A stretch of 42,120 nt of DNA from a virus (Duplodnaviria > Heunggongvirae > Uroviricota > Caudoviricetes): the IMG/VR virus record IMGVR_UViG_2534681763_000019; one strand, 5' to 3'. This document shows positions 12,657 through 41,711 of the stretch, one piece after another. The stretch's first letter is position 1, and the number at the start of each line of letters is the position of its first letter. The translations under genes and the position numbers were made by a program. The notes under the pieces are model-generated. The model worked only from the letters and a program-made list of their open reading frames with translations. It did no database searches and was not told the DNA's origin.

Positions 12657-12963
12657 CGTTATTCCGCCGCCCGGTCAGCTCCACCACCATAGAACCGTCA
12701 AAGTTGCTGTTGATGGTGATGGAATCCAGCGTCAGCCGTGGCTCCCAGCGACTCAGCGCCACATACACTGCCGACATGACCTGCAGGCGTAATGCCGGAT
12801 TTTGTGGCTGATCTATTAAAACCGACAGGAGGGAACCATATTCCCGGCGGGCAATGCGGCTACCCTGCGGTGTCAGCAGAATGTCCCGCACCGACTGGCG
12901 CAGATGATCAATATCAGTAATGACTTTGCCGCTGGTATTGTTCATCCCGCTATAAAGCGTCAT
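12604..12963 (-). CDS. W: Baseplate protein W
   Basis: 119-aa ORF between V and J. Confidence 0.8.
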   Translation of the reverse strand: MTLYSGMNNTSGKVITDIDHLRQSVRDILLTPQGSRIARREYGSLLSVLIDQPQNPALRLQVMSAVYVALSRWEPRLTLDSITINSNFDGSMVVELTGRRNNGVPVSLSVSTGAENGSD

Positions 12964-13604
12964 ACCGGGCCTCCGGTTGTATCGCCGCCTTTCAGGACAC
13001 CAGTATGCTGATGCGCATCAACCACAATCCCGTTAGAACTCATCGCACCGCCGCCCTGGGTAACGCCACCATTGATCACTACTTCGCTGTTAATTCGCGT
13101 GCGGTCAGCCTCCAGCACAAACTCACTGGTTTTCATGGTGATATTGTCAGCGGCCTCAATGACCATTGATTTGATGCCCCTGACATACCAGCGCCCGGTG
13201 GCGGGTTCGTATTCAAACCAGCTACCGTCAGGATGTTCTGTCACGCAGGCGTCCGCCGACGTCGACGGTGGTGCGAACTGATTCGAATAGACAGCGGGCA
13301 GCGCAAAGGCAGTCTCCAGATTACCGCCCAGACTCAGCAGCACCACCTGCTCACCTTCCGATGGTCGCCACCATGTGCGGGCATTACCGGCACGCAGCGT
13401 CAGCCAACTGATCCAGTTAGTTTCAAGGTCGCCCGTTTTCACCCGGCAAAGCCAGTTCTCCCGGTCCACTTCGGTGACTACACCAGTGCGGATCAGATTG
13501 GTGATAAGGCGCATGATTTCGGTTAATTGTGCGTTCATGCTGACAATATTGTTTCTTAAACTGAGTGATTGCATCGAAGTGGTTTTGTATGATTGCAGGC
13601 ACAA
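12960..13604 (-). CDS. V: Baseplate spike/assembly protein V
   Basis: 214-aa ORF heading the V-W-J-I baseplate operon, coupled to W by a 4-nt overlap. Confidence 0.8.
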   Translation of the reverse strand: MCLQSYKTTSMQSLSLRNNIVSMNAQLTEIMRLITNLIRTGVVTEVDRENWLCRVKTGDLETNWISWLTLRAGNARTWWRPSEGEQVVLLSLGGNLETAFALPAVYSNQFAPPSTSADACVTEHPDGSWFEYEPATGRWYVRGIKSMVIEAADNITMKTSEFVLEADRTRINSEVVINGGVTQGGGAMSSNGIVVDAHQHTGVLKGGDTTGGPV

Positions 13605-13623
13605 GTTGTAACTAAGGAGGCGA

Positions 13624-14064
13624 TTGATGAAATCTTGGAAAAACCGAGGATTTAAAAAAAGGGTTCTTGAATATGTTTACTGTTTCTCCGCTGCTCCATT
13701 TTTAGCCATGTTCTACACGTTGTCAGAAAACCAGCTGACAATGTTTATAATTTTCTTCACTGTGAGTTTTTATCTCACTCTGATGGCATCCGTTTTTTTA
13801 ACAAAACGAGGATTTAACAAAGTATTCAAAGAATTCTTTAATTTATTATGGAACTATGAAACGGCCTTCGTTTTTTGCTATGGCCTTTATACTTATCTTT
13901 ATAGAATTGATGGGCAGAAAACTTTATCAAACCTCCTTACCATTATGTTTTCAGCTCACCCATGGACACTTATTTTCGGCATCGGACTCTTGGTTTTCAC
14001 AGTAATTTTCAGGTTTGCTCTGAGTGTTGCTGACTTGCTAGTTGAAGTTAAGTCAGATATATAA
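13624..14064 (+). CDS. AT-rich small membrane protein (moron between S and V)
   Basis: 146-aa ORF on the opposite strand to all flanking tail genes, strong RBS (taaggagg), markedly low GC, about four hydrophobic helices (FSAAPFLAMFYTL, FIIFFTVSFYLTLMASVFL, FVFCYGLYTYLY, WTLIFGIGLLVFTVIF). Confidence 0.65.
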   Translation: MMKSWKNRGFKKRVLEYVYCFSAAPFLAMFYTLSENQLTMFIIFFTVSFYLTLMASVFLTKRGFNKVFKEFFNLLWNYETAFVFCYGLYTYLYRIDGQKTLSNLLTIMFSAHPWTLIFGIGLLVFTVIFRFALSVADLLVEVKSDI

Positions 14065-14088
14065 TGAAACAATACAACCATAGAATTT

Positions 14089-14538
14089 TTAGCTATTTAC
14101 CAGCCAATCACATAATATATCCTTGGTGAAATCTAAAACATCTTTGTTGCTTCCTAACAATTTCCGCTCTGCATAACGGACCTCAGGTCCTTTGCGACTG
14201 ACGCGATCACGCAAGCCGTAATGGTGAACGCGTGCAATGCGCTGCACCTTACCTTCAAACTGTACGCTGGCAGAATCAGCGCTGGCGGCAGTTTTCAGGT
14301 ATTTTGTGGTACGAAGCTTTGTAAACATCTGGCGTTTGATGCGCCCCTTTTTACTGCGTGCTGTTACCCGTCGCGGTTCATAGCTGCTGCCGTCAGGGTT
14401 GCGCTGCATCCTGATATTCTGCTGCTGTGTCCGGCGCAGTTCCTGCGCCAGCTGACGCATCATGCGAATTCTTGCGGCTGGCTCCAGATTCGCCAGCAAG
14501 GCACTCAGCCAGTCGTCCACTTTCTGCAGTTCAGCCAC
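14089..14538 (-). CDS. S: Tail completion protein S
   Basis: 149-aa ORF downstream of R with 8-nt overlap. Confidence 0.8.
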   Translation of the reverse strand: MAELQKVDDWLSALLANLEPAARIRMMRQLAQELRRTQQQNIRMQRNPDGSSYEPRRVTARSKKGRIKRQMFTKLRTTKYLKTAASADSASVQFEGKVQRIARVHHYGLRDRVSRKGPEVRYAERKLLGSNKDVLDFTKDILCDWLVNS

Positions 14539-22873: not shown

Positions 22874-23545
22874 TTAAAAACCAAGCTCATCTCTGATTCT
22901 TGGGAATTTTTTCATTACTCGAATATCAGTTAATAAATGCCAACGCCAAAAAACAGAAAATGGATATGATACATTACACATTGGCTTTAGCTTATTCTTG
23001 GCCTCTTGGATTTCTTGTTCTGTGCTTCGATCACTGACAAGTTTCATTCTCCAACCAGTAAAGTAAAACAATTCATCTTGTAACTTCTCTGAGAGATTTG
23101 CTCTTGTAATGCCCCTCAACCCCGTACTCGAAGAGTTAAAACACTTATCTAATAATTTGACTGTATTTAAAACCTTTCTACTTGGTCTTTTTCTTCTTGG
23201 GTATACTTGAACACCACTCGTTATAGCGTTCCCTGCGAGATGAACAATCTCACTGAAAACATCAACATCACTCTTTGTGCAATCAAGTAAGTTTTCAAAA
23301 GAATCACTTTTAATACTATTGCATCGACTGCAAGCTAAAAATAGATTGTTCCAATCATATTTGAGCTCATCAAGATCACGATGTGGAATAAAATGTTCTA
23401 TCTCTGGATCCATAAGATTACCTTGCTCACAGAGATAACATTTTCCATGAAATATTTCGTCTAAAGCATTTACAACTGTTTTATGGTTATATACTTTTCT
23501 CGACAAGCATTGAGGTGCAGGAATATTTCTAGTAACATTAAACAT
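22874..23545 (-). CDS. HNH endonuclease, Septu PtuB-like
   Basis: 223-aa ORF with HNH signature (HGKCYLCEQ...EIEHFIPH...WNNLFLACSRCNSIKSD); RBS aaagggaag; overlaps the upstream ATPase gene by 8 nt; very low GC. Confidence 0.7.
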   Translation of the reverse strand: MFNVTRNIPAPQCLSRKVYNHKTVVNALDEIFHGKCYLCEQGNLMDPEIEHFIPHRDLDELKYDWNNLFLACSRCNSIKSDSFENLLDCTKSDVDVFSEIVHLAGNAITSGVQVYPRRKRPSRKVLNTVKLLDKCFNSSSTGLRGITRANLSEKLQDELFYFTGWRMKLVSDRSTEQEIQEAKNKLKPMCNVSYPFSVFWRWHLLTDIRVMKKFPRIRDELGF

Positions 23546-24776
23546 CGTCTTCCCTTTCGCTATAATCTAAATATTTACTCTTAGCGATCATAAAAGCTGC
23601 TTTTGAACTTTTATCAAGAAAATCAATACTCTTCTGTAACGTTTTCATTATAGAATGAAATCTATCGTCGAAGACATTATTTTCTACTAAAGTCATTAAT
23701 TCTTTAACTAATGCATTTAGCTTATCCGAAGATACATCCTCACCCAACAATCCCTTTATAATTGCTGTGTAAGAATACAATGATAAATCACCCATCTGAT
23801 CCAATGTTGAGAGATTAAATATAATCGCATCAGATACTGATTGGATTACGAAAGGTGAATGCGTAGAAACAATAAATTGTATTTGCGGAAAAGATGATGA
23901 AAAAAAACTAAATACTTTCTTTTGCAATGTTACATGAAGATGAGCATCAATTTCATCAATAAGTACTATCCCTGTCATATCATGTTTTCTGATTTTATCA
24001 AGCTCTGCTTTTATCAATAAATCAGTATAAATAGAAAGAATTGATGAAAAACCAGATGACAACTTATCAAGTCCAAATGGTTCCTTATTATTTTGTAAAA
24101 GATAGATTTTCAACTTGTCGAGATCAAAATCCATTCTAATACTTTCATCTTCAAAAAGTTCTTTTAAGTCATCATTAATACTCTCAATAATATCAAAGGC
24201 TCTTTTATAGTCATCATCCTTGCCCACTCCCTTACTGACTAAAGCATAATTCCACAATGTAACTATGTATCTTTCAAAATACATACCAGCATCAATCTTA
24301 GAATTATTTCTCTGTGCGTTCCCATACTCAGTTAACAACAAATCGAGGCTGCTAATCTTACCATCATTTTTTATTTTCGCTTCTCGAATAGCAGGAAATA
24401 ATCTTATAATTGATTTTTTCTTTTTTGCAGCAACCCTGAAATCAACCACATCATTAAAAGTAATATCAAAGCTCTCAAATTCTTTTAATTTTTCTTTCAG
24501 TCTCTCAATTTCTTCGTTTAAATAGCTATAATTACCATCCCCTCTATTTGAATACTTTAAGTTTTCTTGACTGGAATTCAATTCCTTTTGTAGCTGCTCC
24601 TTAGTATAAGGATCATGTGAATTAATCGATTTTTCTATAAACTCATAAATATTCTCGATCAACCTAGTTTTACCAGAGCCATTATCTCCTGATATTATTA
24701 GATTCTTACCATCAAGATTTAATGTGTAAGGCTCATCGTTCCTTTTAAAGAAGATAGTTTCGATGAAATGTCGCAT
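23538..24776 (-). CDS. ABC-type (AAA_15/21-like) ATPase, Septu PtuA-like
   Basis: Walker A GDNGSGKT, signature-like LSSGFSS, Walker B IVLIDEIDAHLH, H-loop STHSP. Start placed at the second Met (GGAGG 4 nt upstream); the ORF track starts 15 nt earlier at 24791. Confidence 0.7.
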   Translation of the reverse strand: MRHFIETIFFKRNDEPYTLNLDGKNLIISGDNGSGKTRLIENIYEFIEKSINSHDPYTKEQLQKELNSSQENLKYSNRGDGNYSYLNEEIERLKEKLKEFESFDITFNDVVDFRVAAKKKKSIIRLFPAIREAKIKNDGKISSLDLLLTEYGNAQRNNSKIDAGMYFERYIVTLWNYALVSKGVGKDDDYKRAFDIIESINDDLKELFEDESIRMDFDLDKLKIYLLQNNKEPFGLDKLSSGFSSILSIYTDLLIKAELDKIRKHDMTGIVLIDEIDAHLHVTLQKKVFSFFSSSFPQIQFIVSTHSPFVIQSVSDAIIFNLSTLDQMGDLSLYSYTAIIKGLLGEDVSSDKLNALVKELMTLVENNVFDDRFHSIMKTLQKSIDFLDKSSKAAFMIAKSKYLDYSEREDDV

Positions 24777-25228: not shown

Positions 25229-25882
25229 ATGAATAAATACAAACTTTTCGCACAGCTATCAAGATATTCATTTGAAGCGCAGATTGATGATTTCGAAAAA
25301 TATATCCTAGGAGCAGGCGGCCAAAACAGAGTTGACTTATCGGAATTAAAAAAAGCATATGAAGATGAAAAAAAGAATGCTCCTGACGATTATATTAATT
25401 ACTTAGAAGACTATTATTCAGAGCAATATGATTTCTTAGTTAACATACAACCAAATATTTTTAATAAATCTGCTTTGGTATCTTTATACTCATGCTTAGA
25501 GCACAACCTAAACGACTATTGCAATATATGTCAAAGGATTGTAAACACCAATATATCAGTAACCGATTTTAATGGTGATGGCATCCACAAAGCAAAAAGA
25601 TATTTAACAAAATTAATGGATATAAACTTTGGCCTGTCACAAGAGTGGCGATTCATGACAGAGTTTAACAAAGTAAGGAATTGCATAGTTCATGCTAATG
25701 GAGACATTAAAAAAATGAGCACAGCTGTAGCCTTAAAAGATATCATTGATAAAACACCTACTCTTTCATTAAACAATGAAAATAATATAATAATCTCCTT
25801 AAATTATTTAAAAGATACTATCACAAAAATTAGAAAACTCTTTCAATGGTTATATACACATCTGGATCAATCATCGAAATGA
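25229..25882 (+). CDS. Hypothetical protein with HEPN-like R-x4-H motif
   Basis: 217-aa ORF, very AT-rich, with C-terminal motif KVRNCIVHANGD (R-x4-H) typical of HEPN RNase domains; sits at the old/tin-equivalent position between cos and A. Confidence 0.55.
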   Translation: MNKYKLFAQLSRYSFEAQIDDFEKYILGAGGQNRVDLSELKKAYEDEKKNAPDDYINYLEDYYSEQYDFLVNIQPNIFNKSALVSLYSCLEHNLNDYCNICQRIVNTNISVTDFNGDGIHKAKRYLTKLMDINFGLSQEWRFMTEFNKVRNCIVHANGDIKKMSTAVALKDIIDKTPTLSLNNENNIIISLNYLKDTITKIRKLFQWLYTHLDQSSK

Positions 25883-26134: not shown

Positions 26135-27001
26135 TTAGATGGCTTTGCTTCGATATTCAATTTCTAAAATCGCCTTTGTCATTGCCGCAATAGTTATAGC
26201 TTCTACCATAGTCAATTCAGGCTTGTTCAAGCTTCCGTGTCCAGCAGTAGGTAATTTGTTACGTAAATCATAAATATCTTTAACAGCATCAATAAGATTC
26301 TTAGGTAATTTTGACATTTTTTCGAACTGTTTAAAAAAACCACCCAATGACTCATTTGCCACATTCGGGTTTTGAGTGATTTCCTTAGCCATAGTTTCTA
26401 AAACATTAGAGGCTGCGTGCAGTGCACCTGCCGGATCATTATTATCCAAGCAATTATTCATTCTATCTATTTGCTGAACGATATTTGGGTGCAATCTCTT
26501 TAAGTAATCACTAGCCAATTCTTCATTGAAATTTTTGACACTTTCAAAAACATCGCAATCTAAATAAAATTTAGGATTGACTGACATCCATGTATATTTC
26601 CAATCATTTTCTAAATTATCTTTTTCCGCAATACGCCTGCCAGTGTCCTGATCTATCTCATCAACATATTTACACATATAATCGGCGTAGTAGTGTAAAT
26701 ATCTAAATGATATTTCTGGGCAAAAATTACTAACTGATGCAAGGCCGCCATATTCTTTTGTAGTAACTGTAGGGACTTCTTCATCACATAAAGATGAGAA
26801 AGTGGTTCTTTCCCAAAATTCGCCCAACTCTTTTTCTTTCCTAGTTGCCATACCAGCTATCATATTGATGCTTGAGAGCAAAACTACACTCTGATAGTAT
26901 CGAGGACATCTGTATGAACTAGCATATGGGCATATTGATGATGCTTTACGATTAATACGCTCTTTTTCCCACCAATTTTTATCAGGAATAATTCTTTGCA
27001 T
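26135..27001 (-). CDS. Hypothetical protein (accessory cargo)
   Basis: 288-aa ORF, AT-rich, convergent with the HEPN-like gene, Cys/Tyr-rich N-terminus and helical C-terminus with LRNKLPTAGHGS; no family assignable by eye. Confidence 0.5.
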   Translation of the reverse strand: MQRIIPDKNWWEKERINRKASSICPYASSYRCPRYYQSVVLLSSINMIAGMATRKEKELGEFWERTTFSSLCDEEVPTVTTKEYGGLASVSNFCPEISFRYLHYYADYMCKYVDEIDQDTGRRIAEKDNLENDWKYTWMSVNPKFYLDCDVFESVKNFNEELASDYLKRLHPNIVQQIDRMNNCLDNNDPAGALHAASNVLETMAKEITQNPNVANESLGGFFKQFEKMSKLPKNLIDAVKDIYDLRNKLPTAGHGSLNKPELTMVEAITIAAMTKAILEIEYRSKAI

Positions 27002-34495: not shown

Positions 34496-35512
34496 ATGAC
34501 TGTCAGAAAACAGCCAAACGGTAAATGGTTGTGCGAGTGCTATCCCAATGGACGCAATGGCAAGCGCGTGCGTAAGCAATTTGCTACGAAAGGCGAAGCC
34601 ATTGCTTTTGAAAGCTTCACAATGGAAGAAGTGAACAAAAAACCATGGCTGGGGGAAAAGGAAGATCGGCGACACCTATCAGAATTAATTGAGCAGTGGT
34701 ATTCCCTGTATGGTCAAACACTCGCAGACCCCAAGCGCCTCATGGCGAAACTTAGAATTATCTGTAATGGTCTAGGCGATCCCATCGCTTCAGAACTGAC
34801 AGCCGGTGACTTTACGAAATACCGCGAAGCACGGTTAAAAGGTGAAGTACGAAATGAAGATGGCACGTTTATGTCGCCCGTTAAGCCCCGCACGGTAAAC
34901 CTTGAACAGCGCAATCTATCATCTGTTTTTGGTACACTGAAAAAGTTGGGCCACTGGTCAGCCTCCAACCCGCTTGCTGGGCTGCCAACATTTAAAATTG
35001 CTGAGAGTGAATTGGCGTTCCTGACCCCGGAAGAAATTAAACGTCTGCTGGATGCCTGCGCCGATTCTCAAAGCTCCAGCCTGCTTTTGATTGCAAAAAT
35101 ATGCCTGGCCACCGGCGCACGCTGGAGCGAAGCCGAAAACCTGCAGAGTCATCAGGTATCAAAATACCGTATCACTTATACCAAGACCAAAGGCAAGAAA
35201 AACCGAACTGTGCCTATTTCTAAGGATTTATATGAAGAACTGCCTAAGAATAGGGGGAAGTTATTCACCCCATGCAGAAAAGCCTTTGAGCGTGCAGTAA
35301 AGCGGGCTGGTATCGATCTGCCAGAGGGTCAATGTACTCACGTTCTGCGTCATACATTCGCTAGCCATTTTATGATGAATGGTGGAAACATATTGGTTTT
35401 GCGGGATATCCTAGGACATTCAGATATAAAAATGACCATGGTCTATGCACACTTCGCCCCAGACCATTTAGAAGATGCCGTAACTAAAAATCCTTTATTT
35501 AATTTGAGGTAA
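34496..35512 (+). CDS. int: Tyrosine integrase (P2/186 family)
   Basis: 338-aa ORF with tyrosine-recombinase C-terminal motifs (ATGARWSE...HVLRHTFASHF...LGHSDIKMTMVYAH); adjacent to attR. Confidence 0.88.
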   Translation: MTVRKQPNGKWLCECYPNGRNGKRVRKQFATKGEAIAFESFTMEEVNKKPWLGEKEDRRHLSELIEQWYSLYGQTLADPKRLMAKLRIICNGLGDPIASELTAGDFTKYREARLKGEVRNEDGTFMSPVKPRTVNLEQRNLSSVFGTLKKLGHWSASNPLAGLPTFKIAESELAFLTPEEIKRLLDACADSQSSSLLLIAKICLATGARWSEAENLQSHQVSKYRITYTKTKGKKNRTVPISKDLYEELPKNRGKLFTPCRKAFERAVKRAGIDLPEGQCTHVLRHTFASHFMMNGGNILVLRDILGHSDIKMTMVYAHFAPDHLEDAVTKNPLFNLR

Positions 35513-35522
35513 GTAGTAATTT

Positions 35523-36191
35523 ATGAATAGCGAACTAGAGTTACTTATAAAAATATTATTCCCTTCCCTATCTGCCATTATATCCTTATTAGGGCTTAAA
35601 ACAGGGTGGACTTATAAAAAAGACAAACTATTCACATCACGTAAAAACATTAGCGAATTTTCATATCAGATGTATAAAAGCAGTGAAGATCCGACCTTCA
35701 AAAAACTGGCGGAAGATTACGGCATTGCTGCATTAACCAAAGATAACACATTGACAAAAAAACAAAGATTAATATTACTCAACACAACAAACCCCGTTAG
35801 CGATATAGATAATTATTCCAAATGTCAAAGTCTAATTTCCATTACCACCCATAAAGAAATATTCGCATGGAATAAAAAAAGATATAAATACAGCATATAT
35901 AGAAAATTAATAAAAATCATAACAACTCTAATTTACTTCATGAGCAGTCTCATCGTAGCACTTCCTTTCAGTTATTCTGTTGTAGTAAGTGCTAAGATGA
36001 TGGAGAAGATAAACCATCTAACTACTTGGCAATACTTTGGTTTAAGCAGCTATTTTGTGGTATCGGGAGTAGCAATATGCTTTATCTGCCTAGATAAGCT
36101 CTCCAAGATTAAGATCGCCGAGAGATTAATCGTTTCGAATAGGCGTTTAGGCGACAAATGCAGTGGCGGCACTTTGGCGGCAGAAAGTTAA
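35523..36191 (+). CDS. AT-rich membrane protein (moron between int and attR)
   Basis: 222-aa ORF, very low GC, hydrophobic helices (LFPSLSAIISLLGL, IITTLIYFMSSLIVALPF, YFGLSSYFVVSGVAICFICL). Confidence 0.6.
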   Translation: MNSELELLIKILFPSLSAIISLLGLKTGWTYKKDKLFTSRKNISEFSYQMYKSSEDPTFKKLAEDYGIAALTKDNTLTKKQRLILLNTTNPVSDIDNYSKCQSLISITTHKEIFAWNKKRYKYSIYRKLIKIITTLIYFMSSLIVALPFSYSVVVSAKMMEKINHLTTWQYFGLSSYFVVSGVAICFICLDKLSKIKIAERLIVSNRRLGDKCSGGTLAAES

Positions 36192-36444: not shown

Positions 36445-37716
36445 ATGGGACCCACTAAGAAGGGTCCAAAAACCGAGGGTCCCAAAATGGCAAAAATCGC
36501 TAAGAAGCTCACTGACACTGAAATCAAAAGCACCAAGCCAGCCGATAAAGAAATCAACTTGTTTGACGGTGATGGTCTGATTCTACGAATCGCTCCTTTG
36601 GCGAAAGGAGGCAAGAAAAATTGGTATTTCAGGTATGCAGTACCAGTGAGCAAGAAAAGAACCAAAATGAGCCTTGGGACATATCCTCACCTTACCCTTG
36701 CAAGAGCCAGAGCCTTACGTGATGAATATCTCTCCTTTCTGGCAAATGGTGTTGATCCCCAAATCCATAACAACGATAAGGCGAAGGCATTAAAGAGTGC
36801 TACTGAGCACACTCTCCAAGCCGTAGCGCGGAAATGGTTAGATGAGAAGGTAAAGACATCAGGTATCTCACAAGACCATGCAGCAGACATCTGGCGCAGC
36901 TTAGAGAGAAATGTCTTTCCCGGTCTGGGTAATGTCCCTATCAATGAGATCCGACCTAAGCTCTTAAAACAACACCTTGATCCTATTGAGCAACGAGGCG
37001 TATTGGAAACTCTACGCCGTATCATTTCACGTCTGAATGAAATCTTCCGGTGGGCAGCTACTGAAGAACTTATTGAGTTCAACCCGGCTGACAACCTTGG
37101 TCAAAGATTCAGTAAACCAAAAAAGCAAAATATGCCTGCCCTTCCCCCAAGCGAATTGCCAAGGTTTATGGAATCTTTGACGAATGCGTCAATCCGGTTG
37201 GAAACACGTATGCTAATTGAATGGCAATTGTTGACATGGGTTCGTCCGGGTGAAGCCGTTCGCGCAAGGTGGTCTGATATTGATACAACCAACAGCATTT
37301 GGAACATTCCTGCTGATTTCATGAAAATGAAAAAGCTTCACAAAGTTCCTTTGAGTAAAGAAGCTTTGCGCATCCTTGAATTAATGAAATCAATAAGTGG
37401 GCATAGAGAATGGGTTTTCCCCAGCATAAAAGCGCCTCTTAATCATATGCATGAACAAACAGCCAACGCAGCTATCATCCGAATGGGGTTCGGAGGCGAG
37501 CTTGTAGCTCACGGTATGCGTTCTATTGCACGAACAGCGGCAGAGGAGGCTGGTAAATTCAGAGCTGAAGTTCTTGAGGCAGCGCTTGCCCACTCGAAAA
37601 AAGATGAAATTATCGCAGCATACAATCGTGCAGAATATCTGATAGAGCGACAGAGTTTGATGCAATGGTGGAGTGATTACGTTCAAGCTCAAAGATCAAA
37701 TGCTCTGGTAGCCTAA
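36445..37716 (+). CDS. P4/CP4-57-like tyrosine integrase
   Basis: N-terminus (MAKIAKKLTDTEIKSTKP...LFDGDGL...WYFRY) follows the P4-family integrase pattern (probable start at the internal Met, 36487); C-terminus has recombinase motifs (ELVAHGMRS...ALAHS...AYNRAEY); sits beside the ssrA att remnant like intA of CP4-57. Confidence 0.85.
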   Translation: MGPTKKGPKTEGPKMAKIAKKLTDTEIKSTKPADKEINLFDGDGLILRIAPLAKGGKKNWYFRYAVPVSKKRTKMSLGTYPHLTLARARALRDEYLSFLANGVDPQIHNNDKAKALKSATEHTLQAVARKWLDEKVKTSGISQDHAADIWRSLERNVFPGLGNVPINEIRPKLLKQHLDPIEQRGVLETLRRIISRLNEIFRWAATEELIEFNPADNLGQRFSKPKKQNMPALPPSELPRFMESLTNASIRLETRMLIEWQLLTWVRPGEAVRARWSDIDTTNSIWNIPADFMKMKKLHKVPLSKEALRILELMKSISGHREWVFPSIKAPLNHMHEQTANAAIIRMGFGGELVAHGMRSIARTAAEEAGKFRAEVLEAALAHSKKDEIIAAYNRAEYLIERQSLMQWWSDYVQAQRSNALVA

Positions 37717-37754
37717 GTATCAGAATAGCTAATATAATCCTGAAGGTAAAGAAA

Positions 37755-38171
37755 ATGGAAACCCTATTCAAAGTTTTTGAAAAATTTAGTTCCAGACCAC
37801 TTTTTTTTATTTTTTTCGGACTCTCACTTTGTGAATTTTTTCAGAAACAATCTGTTCTGATGAATCCATCAGCAGATAACATCGCGAAATTATTCGCAGC
37901 CATGATATTAGTTGTTTTTTTTACTTGGGGATTTGAATGGCTAATCTTCAAGTTCAATGTAAACCTTGAACCTCATGATCAAGGCGATATTGGACCAACA
38001 ATTGGAACGGCTACTTTAGCTGTATACTTAGTTTATGCCTTTCACTTTCTCAGTGAAAATCCTGAAGCATTAAATTTAAAGTTATTAACTAACTCTGGCT
38101 TTATATACAGCACAACTCTATTATTATTCTCATTAGAATGCATGAAGCTTAGAAGACTTAAACAAAAATAA
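37755..38171 (+). CDS. Small hydrophobic protein
   Basis: 138-aa AT-rich ORF with 3-4 hydrophobic helices, directly downstream of the integrase. Confidence 0.5.
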   Translation: METLFKVFEKFSSRPLFFIFFGLSLCEFFQKQSVLMNPSADNIAKLFAAMILVVFFTWGFEWLIFKFNVNLEPHDQGDIGPTIGTATLAVYLVYAFHFLSENPEALNLKLLTNSGFIYSTTLLLFSLECMKLRRLKQK

Positions 38172-38242
38172 ACAACATCATTGTGATGATAAATATAAAA
38201 TAGGCATGGCGAAAAAAAATCACCACGCCTAAAATATAATAA

Positions 38243-40009
38243 TTATGGTAGCATCATTGATACATAATCCACACCAATCCTTGAGCTATACTGAGACGCT
38301 ATAGCCTGATATCTTTCTGCATAACCAGTTCTCAGTTGAGATTTAAGTTTGAGTCGGACAGGAACATTTTGCACGTTGCCATCCATATTACTTAAAAACA
38401 CGGCAGAAATAATATTTTTTTCTTCGCCATCAACTGTTGTTCCATGATTCAACACCACCATATAATCAACAACAGGAAGCGTTTTATCCCCTTCGAAAAT
38501 AGAGAGATATTTTCTTTGATTTTTATGCATTACATATATATATTTCGAATGTTCAGCAAATGGCAATGCTTTACTCTGACTGGCGTTAAAAAGCTCCAGA
38601 ACTTTAATGAGCCTGTGCGGACTTAATCTTACATGGTGAGGGTCGTTACCCTGAGTAGGAACCAAATCACATGCCGCAGATACACATAAATACCATTTGT
38701 TCGACTCTGTATCAAAGAAAATAGTGCCAGTAGAAATATGACCATCTTCAAAATTCTTTGAAGACAAATTCATATTTAAAGCATGATACATTTCGTGATA
38801 AGTATCATTATTTGATGGCAGATCCATTTTTGAAGAGCAATATTGGAGCAATGCAGCAACTCCGCTGTTAGCGTATTCATTTGAATAGCTATCAAAAACA
38901 CTTTTGATAAATTCATCCAGCGTATTATTATTTTTAAGTCTTTGATAAAGCTCTTCTGATAAATTACCAAATACAAAGTCAATATTTCTACATCTAATAT
39001 CAGGCGAGTCTGATTTTAATATCTCATTTAACCACGCAGCTTGACCGTAATGATCGTTAGCCAAATGATTTACAAAAGATAAAGCCTCAGCTTCGATTGC
39101 ATTCTGAATTTCAGATTTTATTAACTGATAATAAGATGGTTTCCATTCAATGAGAGAATCATTGAGAGTTTGCCAAATCCTATCTCCATCGTTTTCATGA
39201 TCATCTTGAACCTTATGAAATAGGGAGACAAAGATATTACCACATTGAATCCATTTTACTCCGCTTTCATCACCCCGAATGACATTGCCAGATGTGTTGC
39301 TAGAAATAATTGCATTTCTAGACACAGCATATTCTGCAATCATTTTTGCAATGAAGTTTTTATCCTTTTGATCCTCCAACACAGCATCATCATGTATTAA
39401 TCTTTTAATTCTTCTACAAGGCTTACTGTCTTTAATATAGGCTATTGTTTCATCTCTTGTGAGAGCTTTATTACCATTATCATTTAAGTTCGGTAATACA
39501 ACGTCTTCCCAATAACTTTGGACATCTTCATTATCGTAGTCAATGATCAAGCTGTTGATATCCAGAGCACCTTTGAGAGTCGATGATATCTGCATCCAAA
39601 CCGTTTCTAAATTCTCTCTAGTATATATTACAATCATATTTAAATGATCGGAGTCTTTCAAATCTTGTAATAGTTTAAGTGTTTTATCAGGTGCATTATT
39701 ATCAAGATGATAATCTACAATAATAAGATCTGATTTTCTAATCCGATCCACATCGAAATTAACAGAACCATTGTCAACATCACAAATCATATTTTTAGAT
39801 TGTAAAAAGCTCTCAAGAGTAGCGGCTCGTTTAGATGAGTCAATTTTGTTGTAGTCTAAATCAACTTCGTTATTCAACGCCCTGATTGATTCAGAATACG
39901 TCAGAAAATCGTCATCAATCATGACAACGGAACGAATTGCATTTTCGCAGAAAGTTTTCTGGACAAGAGAATTATAATTTGCCACTGTCATATTAGAACT
40001 CCACTCCAT
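38243..40009 (-). CDS. Receiver (REC)-domain protein with large uncharacterised C-terminal domain
   Basis: 588-aa ORF. N-terminus has receiver-domain hallmarks: acidic pocket VVMIDDD, phospho-Asp-like DLIIVDYHL, conserved Thr MIVIYT. No HTH evident in the ~450-aa C-terminal region. Start overlaps the upstream kinase-like gene by 17 nt. Confidence 0.7.
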   Translation of the reverse strand: MEWSSNMTVANYNSLVQKTFCENAIRSVVMIDDDFLTYSESIRALNNEVDLDYNKIDSSKRAATLESFLQSKNMICDVDNGSVNFDVDRIRKSDLIIVDYHLDNNAPDKTLKLLQDLKDSDHLNMIVIYTRENLETVWMQISSTLKGALDINSLIIDYDNEDVQSYWEDVVLPNLNDNGNKALTRDETIAYIKDSKPCRRIKRLIHDDAVLEDQKDKNFIAKMIAEYAVSRNAIISSNTSGNVIRGDESGVKWIQCGNIFVSLFHKVQDDHENDGDRIWQTLNDSLIEWKPSYYQLIKSEIQNAIEAEALSFVNHLANDHYGQAAWLNEILKSDSPDIRCRNIDFVFGNLSEELYQRLKNNNTLDEFIKSVFDSYSNEYANSGVAALLQYCSSKMDLPSNNDTYHEMYHALNMNLSSKNFEDGHISTGTIFFDTESNKWYLCVSAACDLVPTQGNDPHHVRLSPHRLIKVLELFNASQSKALPFAEHSKYIYVMHKNQRKYLSIFEGDKTLPVVDYMVVLNHGTTVDGEEKNIISAVFLSNMDGNVQNVPVRLKLKSQLRTGYAERYQAIASQYSSRIGVDYVSMMLP

Positions 40010-41711
40010 TGAACTGGATCACAAAATTAGCGCCATCTTTTATTAAATAGTTATCGCCTTCATCAGGTTCTGAATACCATATTTTATGATGTGCAACAGC
40101 AAGGTTTTCTCGACATAGATACAGACCTACCCCATGTCCATTTGCTCTTTTGCTATAAAATAGTTCAAATAGTCGCGGGATATCATCGGTATCAATTGCC
40201 GGACCAGAATTTGCTATGATAACCAAAGAATTCACAAAACCAATCTTTATGAGCCTATTATTTGACAGACTGACCCAATACATTGCATTGTTGATAATAT
40301 TAGTAAAAACAGGATAGATCCTTGATGGTATATCTGTTATTGCGATTTGCTTAAACTCTTCACTAAATTCAATAGTTATTCGTTGCCGTTCGAAACGCTC
40401 CCCAAAGAACTTCAGGACATAATCCATGATATTTTTTCCAGTTATTCTCTGCCTGGATTGATAACCTGATATTTTCAAAGGTGATAAGAAACGTATTTGT
40501 TGAGTAAGCGATCTGTGAGCATTTAACGCCAATGAAAAACCAGGGTGTTCTTTTACAGAAGTAGGAAGAGAGTTTAGTCCTCTGGTTACCATAGAATCCA
40601 TTTCTTCAAGTTCATGAGATATTATCTCAACACTAATACCTAACTGTGCAAGCGCGTTTAAACTTTTAGCTTTTTCTTCAAAATATGAGCGTTCTTCTTC
40701 AGATAATGAGAATGCTGAATCTAAGTTTATACCTTCAAATAATCTATCGAGACCTTTTATTATTGATTGATATTTGAAAGTTAGGGTATCAACTGACTCA
40801 ACATATAAACTATCGAGCAAATTAAACACATTTTCAATTTGTGAATCATTATCTATTGAATCAACAACTGATATAGTTTTAGCATAATAATCACTTCGAT
40901 CAACCTTTATTTCATCGGCCCATTTTTTTAAAAGAGAATGTATCTTCTCCTCTATCGTGTTATTAAACTTAGTTAGTTTAGAATTAATAATACCTTGATT
41001 TTTTTCAAGGTGATTTTTCGCTGACAATGAAGGCTCAAGTTTATTTAATTCAGAATCAAGTTTATTAATTGCTAACTTCATTTGTAGAATATACGCAGAG
41101 AACTCATTAAATTTATCTCTGTAGTCTCTATATTTCTCTTCATACATTCCAAGTTTTGGAGGTTTGATAGGCGTTTTAATTTCACTGCGCAACGCATCTA
41201 AGTTTGTAAGATCACTGTCTATAATTTTAAGATAGTTTAAATCTAACGAACCATCAGTTTTATCAAGCTTAGTTTTCAGCCTTTTAACAGCCTCCAAGGA
41301 AGCATCAAGAACTGGTGTCTGATTCTTCAAAGCTTCTGAAAAACTTTTTTGTGTTGATTTTCGAGCTTGTTGTTGAGCAGATTTTCTTAACTCTTTTTCA
41401 CGCTTAACTTGTTCTAAAAGCTCTTTACGGTCATCAGAACGTGAACCAAAAAATCTATCAGCAAGTTCAGTTAACAAATTAGATATAATAGTTTTCAGTT
41501 CTCTTGCAGCCTGGTTTCTTATGAATCCCTCTCTCCCCGACTTATCTTTCAGCTCTTTATTACTGGATTGAGTAATTCCAATATAACCAAAAATCCTTCT
41601 ATTAGACCAATAATATCGCCCTGCATTCCATGAACGTCTTTCTTCTATCTGGAAGAAATCATTATCTACTCGACCATAAGGTAATACTCTCAAGCTATCC
41701 CTAAAAATCAT
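39993..41711 (-). CDS. Soluble histidine-kinase-like protein (DHp + HATPase_c), 5' end possibly truncated by IS3
   Basis: 572-aa ORF. H-box-like IISHELEEM, N-box FTNIINNAMYW, G1-like IIANSGPAID, G2-like ANGHGVGLY; long coiled-coil-rich region upstream; no TM segments. The same frame stays open upstream of the first Met to the IS3 end at 41832. Confidence 0.7.
   Translation of the reverse strand: MIFRDSLRVLPYGRVDNDFFQIEERRSWNAGRYYWSNRRIFGYIGITQSSNKELKDKSGREGFIRNQAARELKTIISNLLTELADRFFGSRSDDRKELLEQVKREKELRKSAQQQARKSTQKSFSEALKNQTPVLDASLEAVKRLKTKLDKTDGSLDLNYLKIIDSDLTNLDALRSEIKTPIKPPKLGMYEEKYRDYRDKFNEFSAYILQMKLAINKLDSELNKLEPSLSAKNHLEKNQGIINSKLTKFNNTIEEKIHSLLKKWADEIKVDRSDYYAKTISVVDSIDNDSQIENVFNLLDSLYVESVDTLTFKYQSIIKGLDRLFEGINLDSAFSLSEEERSYFEEKAKSLNALAQLGISVEIISHELEEMDSMVTRGLNSLPTSVKEHPGFSLALNAHRSLTQQIRFLSPLKISGYQSRQRITGKNIMDYVLKFFGERFERQRITIEFSEEFKQIAITDIPSRIYPVFTNIINNAMYWVSLSNNRLIKIGFVNSLVIIANSGPAIDTDDIPRLFELFYSKRANGHGVGLYLCRENLAVAHHKIWYSEPDEGDNYLIKDGANFVIQFNGVEF

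What the first reader, a model, noticed from the sequence alone, without database searches (positions are those of the whole stretch)
13624..14064. AT-rich membrane-protein moron inserted between tail genes S and V on the opposite strand
All flanking late genes are on the minus strand with GC above 50%. This 146-aa ORF is on the plus strand, strongly AT-rich, has its own strong RBS and encodes about four TM helices. Such morons in tail clusters often encode superinfection-exclusion or host-interaction functions expressed from the prophage.
Basis: seen in the sequence. Interest (0 to 1): 0.45.

Follow-up and report, generated by a model that had tools for sequence, protein, structure and literature searches.

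The report
Accessory membrane gene in prophage tail-cluster
A small, AT-rich gene for a four-helix membrane protein sits backwards between two tail genes of a P2/186-like prophage, in a slot already known to hold swappable accessory genes; the protein family is undescribed and is most likely a phage-exclusion factor, but the arrangement itself is ordinary.

Summary
A 145-aa ORF (ATG 13627–14064, + strand; GC 0.35) lies between baseplate gene V and tail-completion gene S, both on the − strand at GC 0.52–0.56, in a 186/P2-like prophage integrated at ssrA. It has an AAGGAGG ribosome-binding site and four predicted membrane helices, N-in/C-in.

It is one allele of an exchangeable cassette (about 13539–14164). 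The cassette runs from V's start codon into the last ~25 codons of S and keeps the Ogr/Delta-type TGT-N12-ACA activator site of the V promoter. This is the known "orf30" variable region of P2-like phages. Most close relatives have the slot empty; others carry FRG, TIR, DUF6216 or unknown genes.

The protein belongs to a small undescribed family (29 clusters, Enterobacteriaceae only). It has no Pfam, NCBIfam, PADLOC or PDB match and appears in no deposited phage genome. Every copy examined lies in this slot or in a decayed remnant of it. It is under purifying selection, far more divergent than its flanks, and stays intact in three decayed prophages.

The most likely function is an inner-membrane phage-exclusion protein expressed from the prophage. 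That is inferred, not shown. Verdict: a new member of a known kind, of modest interest.

The parts
12960..13538 (-). gpV baseplate spike gene, first gene of the V late operon. The true start is ATG 13538; the 214-aa ORF reaching 13604 is an upstream in-frame extension.
   Evidence: PF04717 6.4e-18 plus Apex motif. RefSeq annotates 579 bp. All loci align up to the CAT at 13536-13538.
13539..14164 (.). The exchangeable cassette: the V-promoter region, the cargo gene and the last ~25 codons of S. This is the stretch with no homology to empty-slot phages or to phages with other cargo.
   Evidence: blastn breakpoints at 13538 and at 14152-14189 against four comparators. S residues 121 to the end are 45-54% identical while residues 1-120 are 81-89% identical. 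The GC trough is shown.
13586..13603 (.). TGTATGATTGCAGGCACA, a TGT-N12-ACA dyad of the type bound by Ogr/Delta/B late activators. It is centred about 56 bp upstream of V's ATG.
   Evidence: It is the only conserved element between V's ATG and the cargo in 15 loci with 8 or more different cargos, including the empty site. P2 annotates an activator-binding site at the same relative place. The identification as an Ogr site rests on established knowledge of P2 late promoters.
13565..13593 (+). Candidate sigma-70 promoter for the cargo gene: GTGATT-N17-TATGAT, matching 8 of 12 positions. Its -10 element overlaps the left half of the activator dyad.
   Evidence: The same arrangement (GTGATT/GTGAAT/ATGAAT-N17-TATGAT or TAAGAT) recurs in L001, L002, L003, L108, L109 and L111 despite ~50% protein divergence. 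It falls below the threshold of the consensus scan, so it is inferred and not shown.
13614..13620 (+). Shine-Dalgarno sequence AAGGAGG, 6 nt upstream of ATG 13627.
   Evidence: Read directly from the sequence.
13627..14064 (+). Cargo gene encoding a 145-aa predicted four-helix inner-membrane protein (N-in/C-in). Family-invariant residues are K68, N72, W75, N76, F83, L122 and R129. Nearly invariant residues are G62, E78 and P112, and position 136 is D or E in nearly all members.
   Evidence: Annotated in RefSeq as hypothetical protein WP_024169309.1.
14089..14538 (-). gpS tail-completion gene, last gene of the O late operon. It converges on the cargo gene with a 24-bp gap, and no intrinsic terminator is detectable.
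   Evidence: PF05069 1.9e-39. Folding 14040-14130 on the - strand gives z = 0.23. No terminator was found there in the scan.

Best explanation
SHOWN: Window 13539-14164 is one allele of a horizontally exchanged accessory cassette. It occupies the known 'orf30' variable slot of P2/186-like phages, between the end of the O late operon (R, S) and the start of the V late operon. Cassettes are swapped by homologous recombination in the conserved V 5' end and the body of S. Each cassette carries its own copy of the V-promoter region, with the TGT-N12-ACA activator site preserved. This allele encodes a 145-aa protein with four predicted transmembrane helices. The protein belongs to a small, previously undescribed family confined to Enterobacteriaceae and found only in this slot or in decayed remnants of it.

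INFERRED: The gene is transcribed in the lysogen from its own weak sigma-70 promoter, whose -10 element overlaps the activator dyad. It is probably damped by H-NS because of its AT-richness. During late lytic growth it is probably shut down, both by activator and RNA polymerase occupancy at the V promoter and by antisense read-through from S.

The protein inserts in the inner membrane with both termini in the cytoplasm. Its conserved polar residues, N72/W75/N76/E78 on helix 3 and R129/D136 on helix 4, cluster at the cytoplasmic leaflet.

Most likely it protects the lysogen against other phages by acting at the inner membrane. My preferred mechanism is superinfection exclusion, meaning a block of genome entry after adsorption, in the manner of T4 Imm, P22 SieA, HK97 gp15 or Kunado/YmfE. 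Rough probabilities: cassette/moron anatomy about 0.9; some anti-phage function about 0.5; a Sie-type entry block specifically about 0.35-0.4. The confidence value given for this explanation refers to the full statement, including the inferred exclusion function.
For: Anatomy.

Non-core status: the slot is empty in 72 of 79 close IMG/VR relatives and in 29 of 47 evenly sampled E. coli loci. The other 18 hold nine or more size classes of cargo. This cargo is in 6 of 5,426 E. coli genomes and in none of 50,697 deposited phage genomes.

Alternative cargos: all are AT-rich (GC 0.30-0.37) and seven of eight are opposite-strand. They include defence-type genes: an FRG protein matching PADLOC PDC-S15 at 8.5e-32, and a TIR protein matching PDC-S66 with weaker SpbK and ThsB hits.

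A real, selected gene: dN/dS is 0.12-0.53 and there are invariant polar residues.

Fast divergence: cargo identity is 25-50% where V and S(1-120) are 81-89% identical, which is the pattern expected of genes in an arms race.

Retention after prophage decay in three independent cases. Kosakonia has V reduced to a frameshifted fragment. Lelliottia has partial V and S. L118/L119 are rearranged remnants. The ORF is intact in all three, and the TGT half of the dyad is mutated in the first two. This argues for a benefit to the host rather than to the virion.

Topology: four hydrophobic peaks and a positive-inside charge pattern.

Published context: the orf30 region is an HGT region (PMC3091744). A defence hotspot exists within P2 tail genes (PMC13586616). 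H-NS binds and silences DUF6216, another cargo of this slot, in the BL21 P2-like prophage, and a single prophage membrane protein, Kunado, acts as a likely Sie (bioRxiv 10.64898/2026.09.05.749240). The same prophage carries Septu in its classical hotspot.
Against: There is no experimental evidence of expression or phenotype. There is no sequence, profile or fold similarity to any known exclusion or defence protein. The structure model has low confidence (pLDDT 54-61), so the clustering of conserved residues is argued from topology only. The promoter match is weak (8/12) and was not called by the consensus scan. Guilt by location is modest, since only two of eight alternative cargos match defence models. 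Slot fidelity is explained well enough by recombination through flanking homology and says nothing about function. Small membrane proteins can do many other things.
Confidence: 0.4

Rival explanations
1. It is an abortive-infection membrane effector. The protein stays inert in the membrane and, on infection, forms a pore or depolarises the cell, killing it before phage release (RexB-like logic).
For: It has the same size and helix count as lambda RexB (144 aa, 4 TM). Conserved intramembrane or interfacial charged residues (E78, R129, D/E136) would suit a gated oligomeric pore. One relative (L095) has a second membrane-protein gene fused upstream with a 4-bp overlap, which hints at a two-component version.
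Against: No sensor partner is present in this window; the cassette has a single gene. hhalign probability against RexB is 0.2%. There are no PADLOC hits. A 145-aa protein that both senses and kills would be unusual.
Confidence: 0.12
2. It is an orphan immunity protein against a membrane-targeting toxin such as a pore-forming colicin, a microcin, or a T6SS or CDI effector. The prophage carries it as a competitive asset.
For: From general knowledge, A-type pore-forming colicin immunity proteins are small, AT-rich, four-helix inner-membrane proteins with cytoplasmic termini. The predicted topology here is the same. Retention in decayed prophages fits any host-beneficial function.
Against: There is no Pfam hit to colicin or other immunity families for any of 15 members, even at E<=1. 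No toxin gene is adjacent in any of about 30 loci. The family is confined to a phage slot and is not found on colicin plasmids or in T6SS or CDI loci.
Confidence: 0.1
3. It is a lysogenic-conversion gene unrelated to phages. It would alter envelope physiology, stress tolerance or host colonisation, which could matter in the ETEC strains that carry it.
For: Five of the six E. coli genomes with the gene were isolated from humans or are of unstated source; ETEC-2265 is from diarrhoeal stool and the sixth is from chicken meat. The gene is retained in decayed prophages. Other P2-like slots carry O-antigen acyltransferase-type morons (L094 and L095).
Against: No enzymatic or transporter domain is present. 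The very rapid sequence divergence is more typical of conflict genes than of physiological ones. The family spans environmental Enterobacter, Leclercia, Kosakonia and Citrobacter and is not specific to pathogens.
Confidence: 0.15
4. It is an accessory gene for the phage's own lytic cycle, such as a lysis-timing or antiholin-like membrane protein, or an assembly factor.
For: It lies within the late gene cluster. P2 LysA is also a small multi-helix membrane protein.
Against: It lies on the opposite strand to both late operons, and its start is separated from the late promoter's direction of transcription. It is absent from most close relatives. It stays intact where the virion genes have decayed. 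hhalign probability against LysA is 0.3%.
Confidence: 0.05
5. It is not a functional gene but a chance ORF in AT-rich filler DNA.
For: AT-rich DNA gives hydrophobic, Phe/Ile/Leu-rich translations. No function is known.
Against: There are 29 homologue clusters of constant length, with seven invariant and six nearly invariant positions at 18-86% identity. dN/dS is 0.12 for a pair with dS 0.63. It has a strong RBS. The ORF is intact in decayed prophages.
Confidence: 0.02

Closest known systems
Phage P2 Orf30 and the 'orf30 region' of P2-like phages (one of three classical variable/HGT regions, with the TO region and the Z/fun region)
   Same: Same slot between S and V, and same opposite-strand orientation. 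The start codon lies a few tens of bp beyond the activator site of the V promoter. Both are AT-rich (P2 orf30 GC 0.34), non-essential and predicted membrane proteins (PMC3091744, PMC6823313).
   Different: There is no sequence relationship (hhalign probability 0.2%). The sizes differ, 261 aa against 145 aa. P2 has an annotated terminator between S and orf30, and none is detectable here.
Prophage-encoded superinfection-exclusion inner-membrane proteins: T4 Imm, P22 SieA, HK97 gp15 (a moron inside a tail gene cluster), Kunado/YmfE of e14
   Same: These are small proteins with no enzymatic domain, predicted to be inner-membrane proteins, encoded as AT-rich accessory genes of temperate phages and acting from the prophage. 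Kunado sits in an H-NS-silenced, divergently transcribed AT-rich locus (bioRxiv 10.64898/2026.09.05.749240).
   Different: There is no detectable homology (YmfE hhalign probability 0.5%; no PHROG or PADLOC hits). No phenotype is known. The properties of Imm, SieA and gp15 are from my own knowledge and were not tested here.
Lambda RexB
   Same: 144 aa against 145 aa, four transmembrane helices, and expressed from a prophage.
   Different: There is no RexA-like partner and no homology.
Other cargos of the same slot: FRG-domain protein (PADLOC candidate PDC-S15), TIR-domain protein, DUF6216, and several unknown proteins
   Same: Same cassette boundaries, the same AT-richness and mostly the same orientation. 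DUF6216 in the BL21 P2-like prophage is H-NS-bound and de-repressed in delta-hns delta-stpA (bioRxiv 10.64898/2026.09.05.749240).
   Different: The proteins are unrelated, and some are soluble.

Membership tests
Moron / accessory cassette of the P2-like 'orf30' (S-V) variable region | Lies between the last gene of the O operon (S) and the first gene of the V operon | tested here: met
Moron / accessory cassette of the P2-like 'orf30' (S-V) variable region | Non-core: absent from, or replaced in, closely related phages | tested here: met
   72 of 79 slots are empty. 29 of 47 are empty, with nine or more other cargos. An empty site is seen in Klebsiella phage 4LV2017.
Moron / accessory cassette of the P2-like 'orf30' (S-V) variable region | Atypical (low) GC compared with the flanking phage genes | tested here: met
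   0.347 against 0.52-0.56.
Moron / accessory cassette of the P2-like 'orf30' (S-V) variable region | Autonomous transcription unit with its own promoter and terminator | tested here: inconclusive
   It is opposite-strand with a strong RBS. The promoter-like element matches 8/12 and is conserved within the subfamily but is below the scan threshold. No terminator was found.
Moron / accessory cassette of the P2-like 'orf30' (S-V) variable region | Expressed from the repressed prophage | not testable with these tools
   Needs RNA-seq or 5'-RACE of a lysogen.
Superinfection-exclusion membrane proteins (Imm, SieA, gp15, Kunado) | Small integral inner-membrane protein | tested here: met
   Prediction only: four hydrophobic peaks, a positive-inside pattern and four long helices.
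Superinfection-exclusion membrane proteins (Imm, SieA, gp15, Kunado) | Homology to a characterised member | tested here: not met
   No hits in Pfam, PHROGs, PADLOC, NCBIfam or PDB. YmfE hhalign probability 0.5%. These proteins do not form one homologous family, so this does not exclude the mechanism.
Superinfection-exclusion membrane proteins (Imm, SieA, gp15, Kunado) | Blocks phage genome entry without blocking adsorption | not testable with these tools
   Needs plating-efficiency, adsorption and DNA-entry assays.
Lambda Rex-type abortive infection | RexB-homologous four-helix protein | tested here: not met
   hhalign probability 0.2%.
Lambda Rex-type abortive infection | Adjacent RexA-like sensor gene | tested here: not met
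   Single-gene cassette. Only L095 has a second gene, and it also encodes a membrane protein.
Known or candidate defence systems in PADLOC-DB v2 | Match to any of 5,027 models | tested here: not met
   No hits at E<=1 for the window protein or P0003, and none at E<=0.01 for P0015.
Pore-forming colicin immunity proteins | Pfam immunity-family match and linkage to a toxin gene | tested here: not met
   No such Pfam hit in 15 members. No toxin gene in any locus.
P2 Orf30 / DUF6216 families | Sequence homology | tested here: not met
   hhalign probability 0.2% against Orf30. No DUF6216 hit.

The most novel reading that the evidence does not exclude
The family is a dedicated, slot-resident exclusion module of P2/186-like phages. 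Its promoter is physically interlocked with the Ogr/Delta-activated V promoter, the -10 element lying inside the activator dyad. The gene would therefore be on in the lysogen and switched off automatically once late genes fire. The protein would block genome entry, or tape-measure and spike penetration, of rival contractile-tailed phages at the cytoplasmic face of the inner membrane, through the conserved N72/W75/N76/E78 and R129/D136 patch. That would make it a new single-protein defence family and a worked example of promoter-level coupling between a moron and a late operon.
Probability: 0.2. Interest if true: 0.55.

Novelty: new member of a known kind. Interest (0 to 1): 0.3.

Why it matters
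The S-V (orf30) slot of P2-like phages has been known for two decades as a place where foreign genes accumulate. Functional work on P2 hotspots, however, has concentrated on the old/tin and Z/fun loci. This analysis sets out the cassette's exact limits and shows that the late-promoter activator site is preserved inside every cassette. It also identifies a compact, undescribed membrane-protein family that lives only in this slot and survives prophage decay. If the family proves to be an exclusion factor, it adds a single-gene defence that current tools (PADLOC, Pfam, PHROGs) cannot recognise, and it marks the slot as a third easily mined defence reservoir in P2-like prophages. If it does not, the finding remains a well-delimited but ordinary moron.

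Tried and rejected
- Pfam, PHROGs, NCBIfam and PADLOC scans of the protein and of 15 family members gave nothing meaningful. The best results were a PHROG hit at 0.039 and scattered single-member transmembrane noise.
- A profile search of PDB sequences gave no hits at E<=10.
- AlphaFold2 with 5 and then 37 sequences gave pLDDT 54 and 61, too low for a trustworthy fold.
- Foldseek against PDB and BFVD gave best E-values of 9.5 and 2.6, which are meaningless. The afdb50 library was not available.
- hhalign against lambda RexB, P2 LysA, P22 GtrA, P2 Orf30 and YmfE/Kunado all gave probabilities below 1%.
- Searches of deposited phage genomes, by blastn with the window insert and by tblastn with three family members, found no match.
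- Rfam found no known RNA in 13300-14300.
- Repeat search found only short chance matches at the boundaries, so there is no sign of transposition or att-type insertion.
- The + strand terminator-like hairpin at 13717-13744 lies inside the ORF, and the number of such hits is at chance level.
- No terminator was found after S.
- The genome-contig scan was limited by its peptide pattern and returned only one locus.
- A literature search for the protein accession found nothing.

Full report
**1. What is there**

The ORF reported at 13624-14064 on the + strand exists. The likely start is ATG 13627, giving 145 aa. AAGGAGG at 13614-13620 lies 6 nt upstream. RefSeq annotates the identical gene in ETEC-2265 as a 145-aa hypothetical protein, WP_024169309.1. 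All homologues start at that position.

The ORF has GC 0.347 and GC3 0.37. Its neighbours V, S, R and W have GC 0.52-0.56 and GC3 0.55-0.65. In 300-bp windows GC falls to 0.33-0.34 across 13600-14099, against 0.52-0.61 on both sides.

The flanking genes are gpV (PF04717 plus Apex motif), gpS (PF05069), gpR and gpW, all on the − strand.

The window as a whole is a 186/P2-like prophage integrated beside the tmRNA gene (tmRNA at 698-1060). It carries ogr, the tail, lysis, head and replication genes, CII, CI and an integrase.

**2. It is a real gene belonging to a small undescribed family**

- A word-indexed search of 5.8 billion proteins found four clusters.
- An exhaustive profile search of 1.84 billion cluster representatives found 11.
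- A second profile search found 29 clusters at 90% identity. All are from Enterobacteriaceae (Escherichia, Citrobacter, Enterobacter, Leclercia, Kosakonia, Scandinavium), all are labelled hypothetical, and none has a Pfam domain.

Members are 141-188 aa and 18-86% identical to the window protein. Invariant residues are K68, N72, W75, N76, F83, L122 and R129. Nearly invariant residues are F48, G62, E78, A80, Y85 and P112. Position 136 is acidic in nearly all members.

dN/dS is 0.12 for a pair with dS 0.63, 0.53 for the closest pair, and 0.2-0.3 for saturated distant pairs.

Hydropathy averaged over the family gives four peaks, at roughly residues 16-28, 43-55, 76-90 and 115-133. Mean K+R counts are 2.5 for the N-terminus, 0.6 for loop 1, 3.2 for loop 2 and 1.35 for loop 3. 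That fits an N-in/C-in four-helix topology.

AlphaFold2 gives four long helices, but only at pLDDT 54-61. I therefore use only its secondary structure. On this topology the conserved polar residues lie at the cytoplasmic ends of helices 3 and 4; this is an inference.

**3. It is one allele of a swappable cassette in a known slot**

Homology to an empty-slot phage (Klebsiella phage 4LV2017) and to loci with other cargos ends exactly at V's ATG (13538). It resumes at 14152-14189, inside S. Consistent with this, S residues 1-120 are 81-89% identical between loci, while residues 121 to the end are only 45-54% identical wherever the cargo differs.

Between V's ATG and the cargo start, the only element conserved in 15 loci with at least eight different cargos, and in the empty site, is a TGT-N12-ACA dyad (window 13586-13603). 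This is the recognition pattern of the Ogr/Delta/B late activators (established knowledge). P2 annotates an activator-binding site at the same relative position.

No repeats or mobility genes flank the cassette. Exchange by homologous recombination in V and S is therefore the parsimonious mechanism.

In P2 itself the slot holds the non-essential, opposite-strand, AT-rich Orf30. The literature lists orf30, together with the TO and Z/fun regions, as the three regions of horizontally acquired genes in P2-like phages (PMC3091744). Phage R18C carries yet another ORF there (PMC6823313). A 2026 survey reports a defence hotspot within the P2 tail genes (PMC13586616).

**4. Occupancy of the slot**

Of the 79 IMG/VR contigs closest by gpS, 72 have an empty slot of 72-78 bp and seven carry cargo of five size classes.

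In complete E. coli genomes the flanks occur in 1,047 of 5,426 genomes. In an evenly spaced sample of 47 loci with both flanks, 29 were empty and 18 occupied. The cargos were DUF6216, an FRG-domain protein, a TIR-domain protein, several unknowns and this gene.

This cargo is present in six genomes and in none of 50,697 deposited phage genomes. That holds by DNA and tblastn for the window gene, and by tblastn for two other subfamily members.

The eight alternative cargos retrieved all have GC 0.30-0.37. Seven of the eight are opposite-strand, and six of those seven start 86-104 bp from V's ATG (the L103 cargo starts about 250 bp away). The FRG protein matches the PADLOC candidate PDC-S15 at 8.5e-32. 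The TIR protein matches PDC-S66, with weaker matches to SpbK and ThsB. Several others, and P2 Orf30, are predicted membrane proteins.

**5. The family is confined to this slot and outlives the prophage**

Every intact locus examined has V divergent upstream and S convergent downstream: the window, L001-L004, L092-L095, and 18 of 20 IMG/VR loci. This includes phages whose V and S are only 56-67% identical to the window's. In L004 only the S side is visible, because the contig is short.

The apparent exceptions are remnants of the same slot.

- The Kosakonia cowanii chromosomal copy has a frameshifted V fragment (codons 1-80) ending 88 bp upstream, and a weak S-like match (E = 0.076) downstream.
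- Lelliottia L107 keeps only partial V and S, with an FRG gene next door.
- L118 and L119 have at most a faint match to the first 17 codons of V (E = 0.04 and 0.36). The family gene there abuts a truncated terminase and a portal gene.

In the first two remnants the TGT half of the dyad is mutated while the ORF is intact. Retention through prophage decay in three independent lineages argues that the gene benefits the host cell.

In one relative (L095) a 208-aa membrane-protein gene precedes the family gene with a 4-bp overlap.

**6. Expression (inferred)**

The consensus scan finds no + strand promoter. A weaker GTGATT-N17-TATGAT element (13565-13593; 8 of 12 positions) has its −10 overlapping the left half of the dyad. 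It recurs, as GTGATT, GTGAAT or ATGAAT followed by N17 and TATGAT or TAAGAT, in subfamily loci that are only ~50% identical in protein.

No intrinsic terminator follows S or the cargo gene. Late transcription from the O operon would therefore run antisense through the gene.

A preprint reports H-NS ChIP peaks on the DUF6216 gene of the BL21 P2-like prophage, with de-repression in delta-hns delta-stpA (bioRxiv 10.64898/2026.09.05.749240). E. coli B-lineage genomes carry DUF6216 in this very slot (H76-H77). By analogy, the equally AT-rich gene here may be H-NS-damped.

**7. Function**

Homology gives nothing. No hits were found in Pfam, PHROGs, NCBIfam, PADLOC or PDB. hhalign probabilities against lambda RexB, P2 LysA, P22 GtrA, P2 Orf30 and YmfE/Kunado are all below 1%. 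Fold searches gave no significant match.

The case for an anti-phage role at the membrane is circumstantial:

- it sits in an accessory slot that also holds defence-type cargos;
- it is opposite-strand and apparently autonomous;
- it is a small membrane protein with no enzymatic domain;
- its divergence (25-50% identity) far exceeds that of its flanks (81-89%);
- its distribution is rare and patchy;
- it is retained after prophage decay;
- there is recent precedent in Kunado, a single prophage membrane protein that blocks T5-like phages after adsorption.

I favour a superinfection-exclusion (entry-block) mechanism at about 0.35-0.4, and any anti-phage role at about 0.5. The rivals are an abortive-infection pore, an orphan toxin-immunity protein, a phage-unrelated conversion function and a lytic-cycle accessory. 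All are listed with tests that would separate them.

**8. Verdict**

The arrangement is a textbook accessory cassette in a slot already described for P2-like phages, so it is a new member of a known kind.

Four things are new here: the precise cassette limits, including the 3' end of S; the preserved activator dyad; the definition of an undescribed, slot-restricted membrane-protein family with a clear conserved motif; and its survival in decayed prophages. Interest is modest (0.3), because function remains untested.

Noticed in passing
window 22874-24776 (- strand), within the AT-rich block at about 22.8-27.6 kb: The classical portal-gpA (old/tin) hotspot of this prophage carries a clear Septu system: PtuA 7.1e-122 and PtuB 1.8e-82 in PADLOC. 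Two further unknown ORFs lie nearby: 25229-25882 on the + strand, with a weak RTasHEPN hit at 5e-05, and 26135-27001 on the - strand.
   Followed up: partly
window 14089-14164 (3' end of gpS): The last ~25 codons of the essential tail gene S belong to the swapped cassette. They co-vary with the cargo (45-54% identity, against 81-89% for the rest of S) and are AT-rich. S therefore tolerates wholesale replacement of its C-terminal tail.
   Followed up: partly
L089 5870-6000 (Kosakonia) and L107 2740-2868 (Lelliottia): In decayed prophage remnants the TGT half-site of the late-activator dyad is mutated while the cargo ORF stays intact. In L107 the change creates a better sigma-70 match upstream of the cargo, TCAACA-N17-TATCAT at 9 of 12 positions.
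   Followed up: partly
L095 5378-6498: This is a two-gene version of the cassette. A 208-aa predicted multi-helix membrane protein with no database hits overlaps the start of the family gene by 4 bp.
   Followed up: partly
L097 616-1416: The TIR-domain cargo of the same slot is the only one found on the same strand as the late genes. It would be co-transcribed with them or read through from S.
   Followed up: no
window 13641-13659 and 13803-13821: An imperfect 19-nt direct repeat inside the ORF encodes the two basic cytoplasmic motifs, NRGFKK before helix 1 and KRGFNK before helix 3, spaced 54 codons apart. It may be a trace of an internal two-helix duplication or it may be chance. It is not conserved in the more distant homologues.
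   Followed up: no
window 35523-36191 and 36445-41711: Beyond the prophage integrase (34496-35512) lies an AT-rich 222-aa ORF with no Pfam hit. After it comes a second integrase, of the P4 type with an arm-binding domain, at 36445-37716. That integrase heads a further AT-rich island encoding a Response_reg_2 protein and an HATPase_c/HEF_HK protein. This looks like a tandem island at the ssrA site carrying a two-component-like conflict system.
   Followed up: no
L094 459-1505 and L095 1-997: Related prophages carry an Acyl_transf_3 gene, resembling an O-antigen acyltransferase, in the Z/fun position between the tail-fibre assembly and sheath genes.
   Followed up: no
window 12960-13604: The mechanical ORF for gpV extends 22 codons upstream to a TTG at 13604, running across the activator dyad. 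The conserved start is ATG 13538. The dyad is centred about 56 bp upstream of that ATG, which implies a very short or absent leader for V, as in the P2 annotation.
   Followed up: partly
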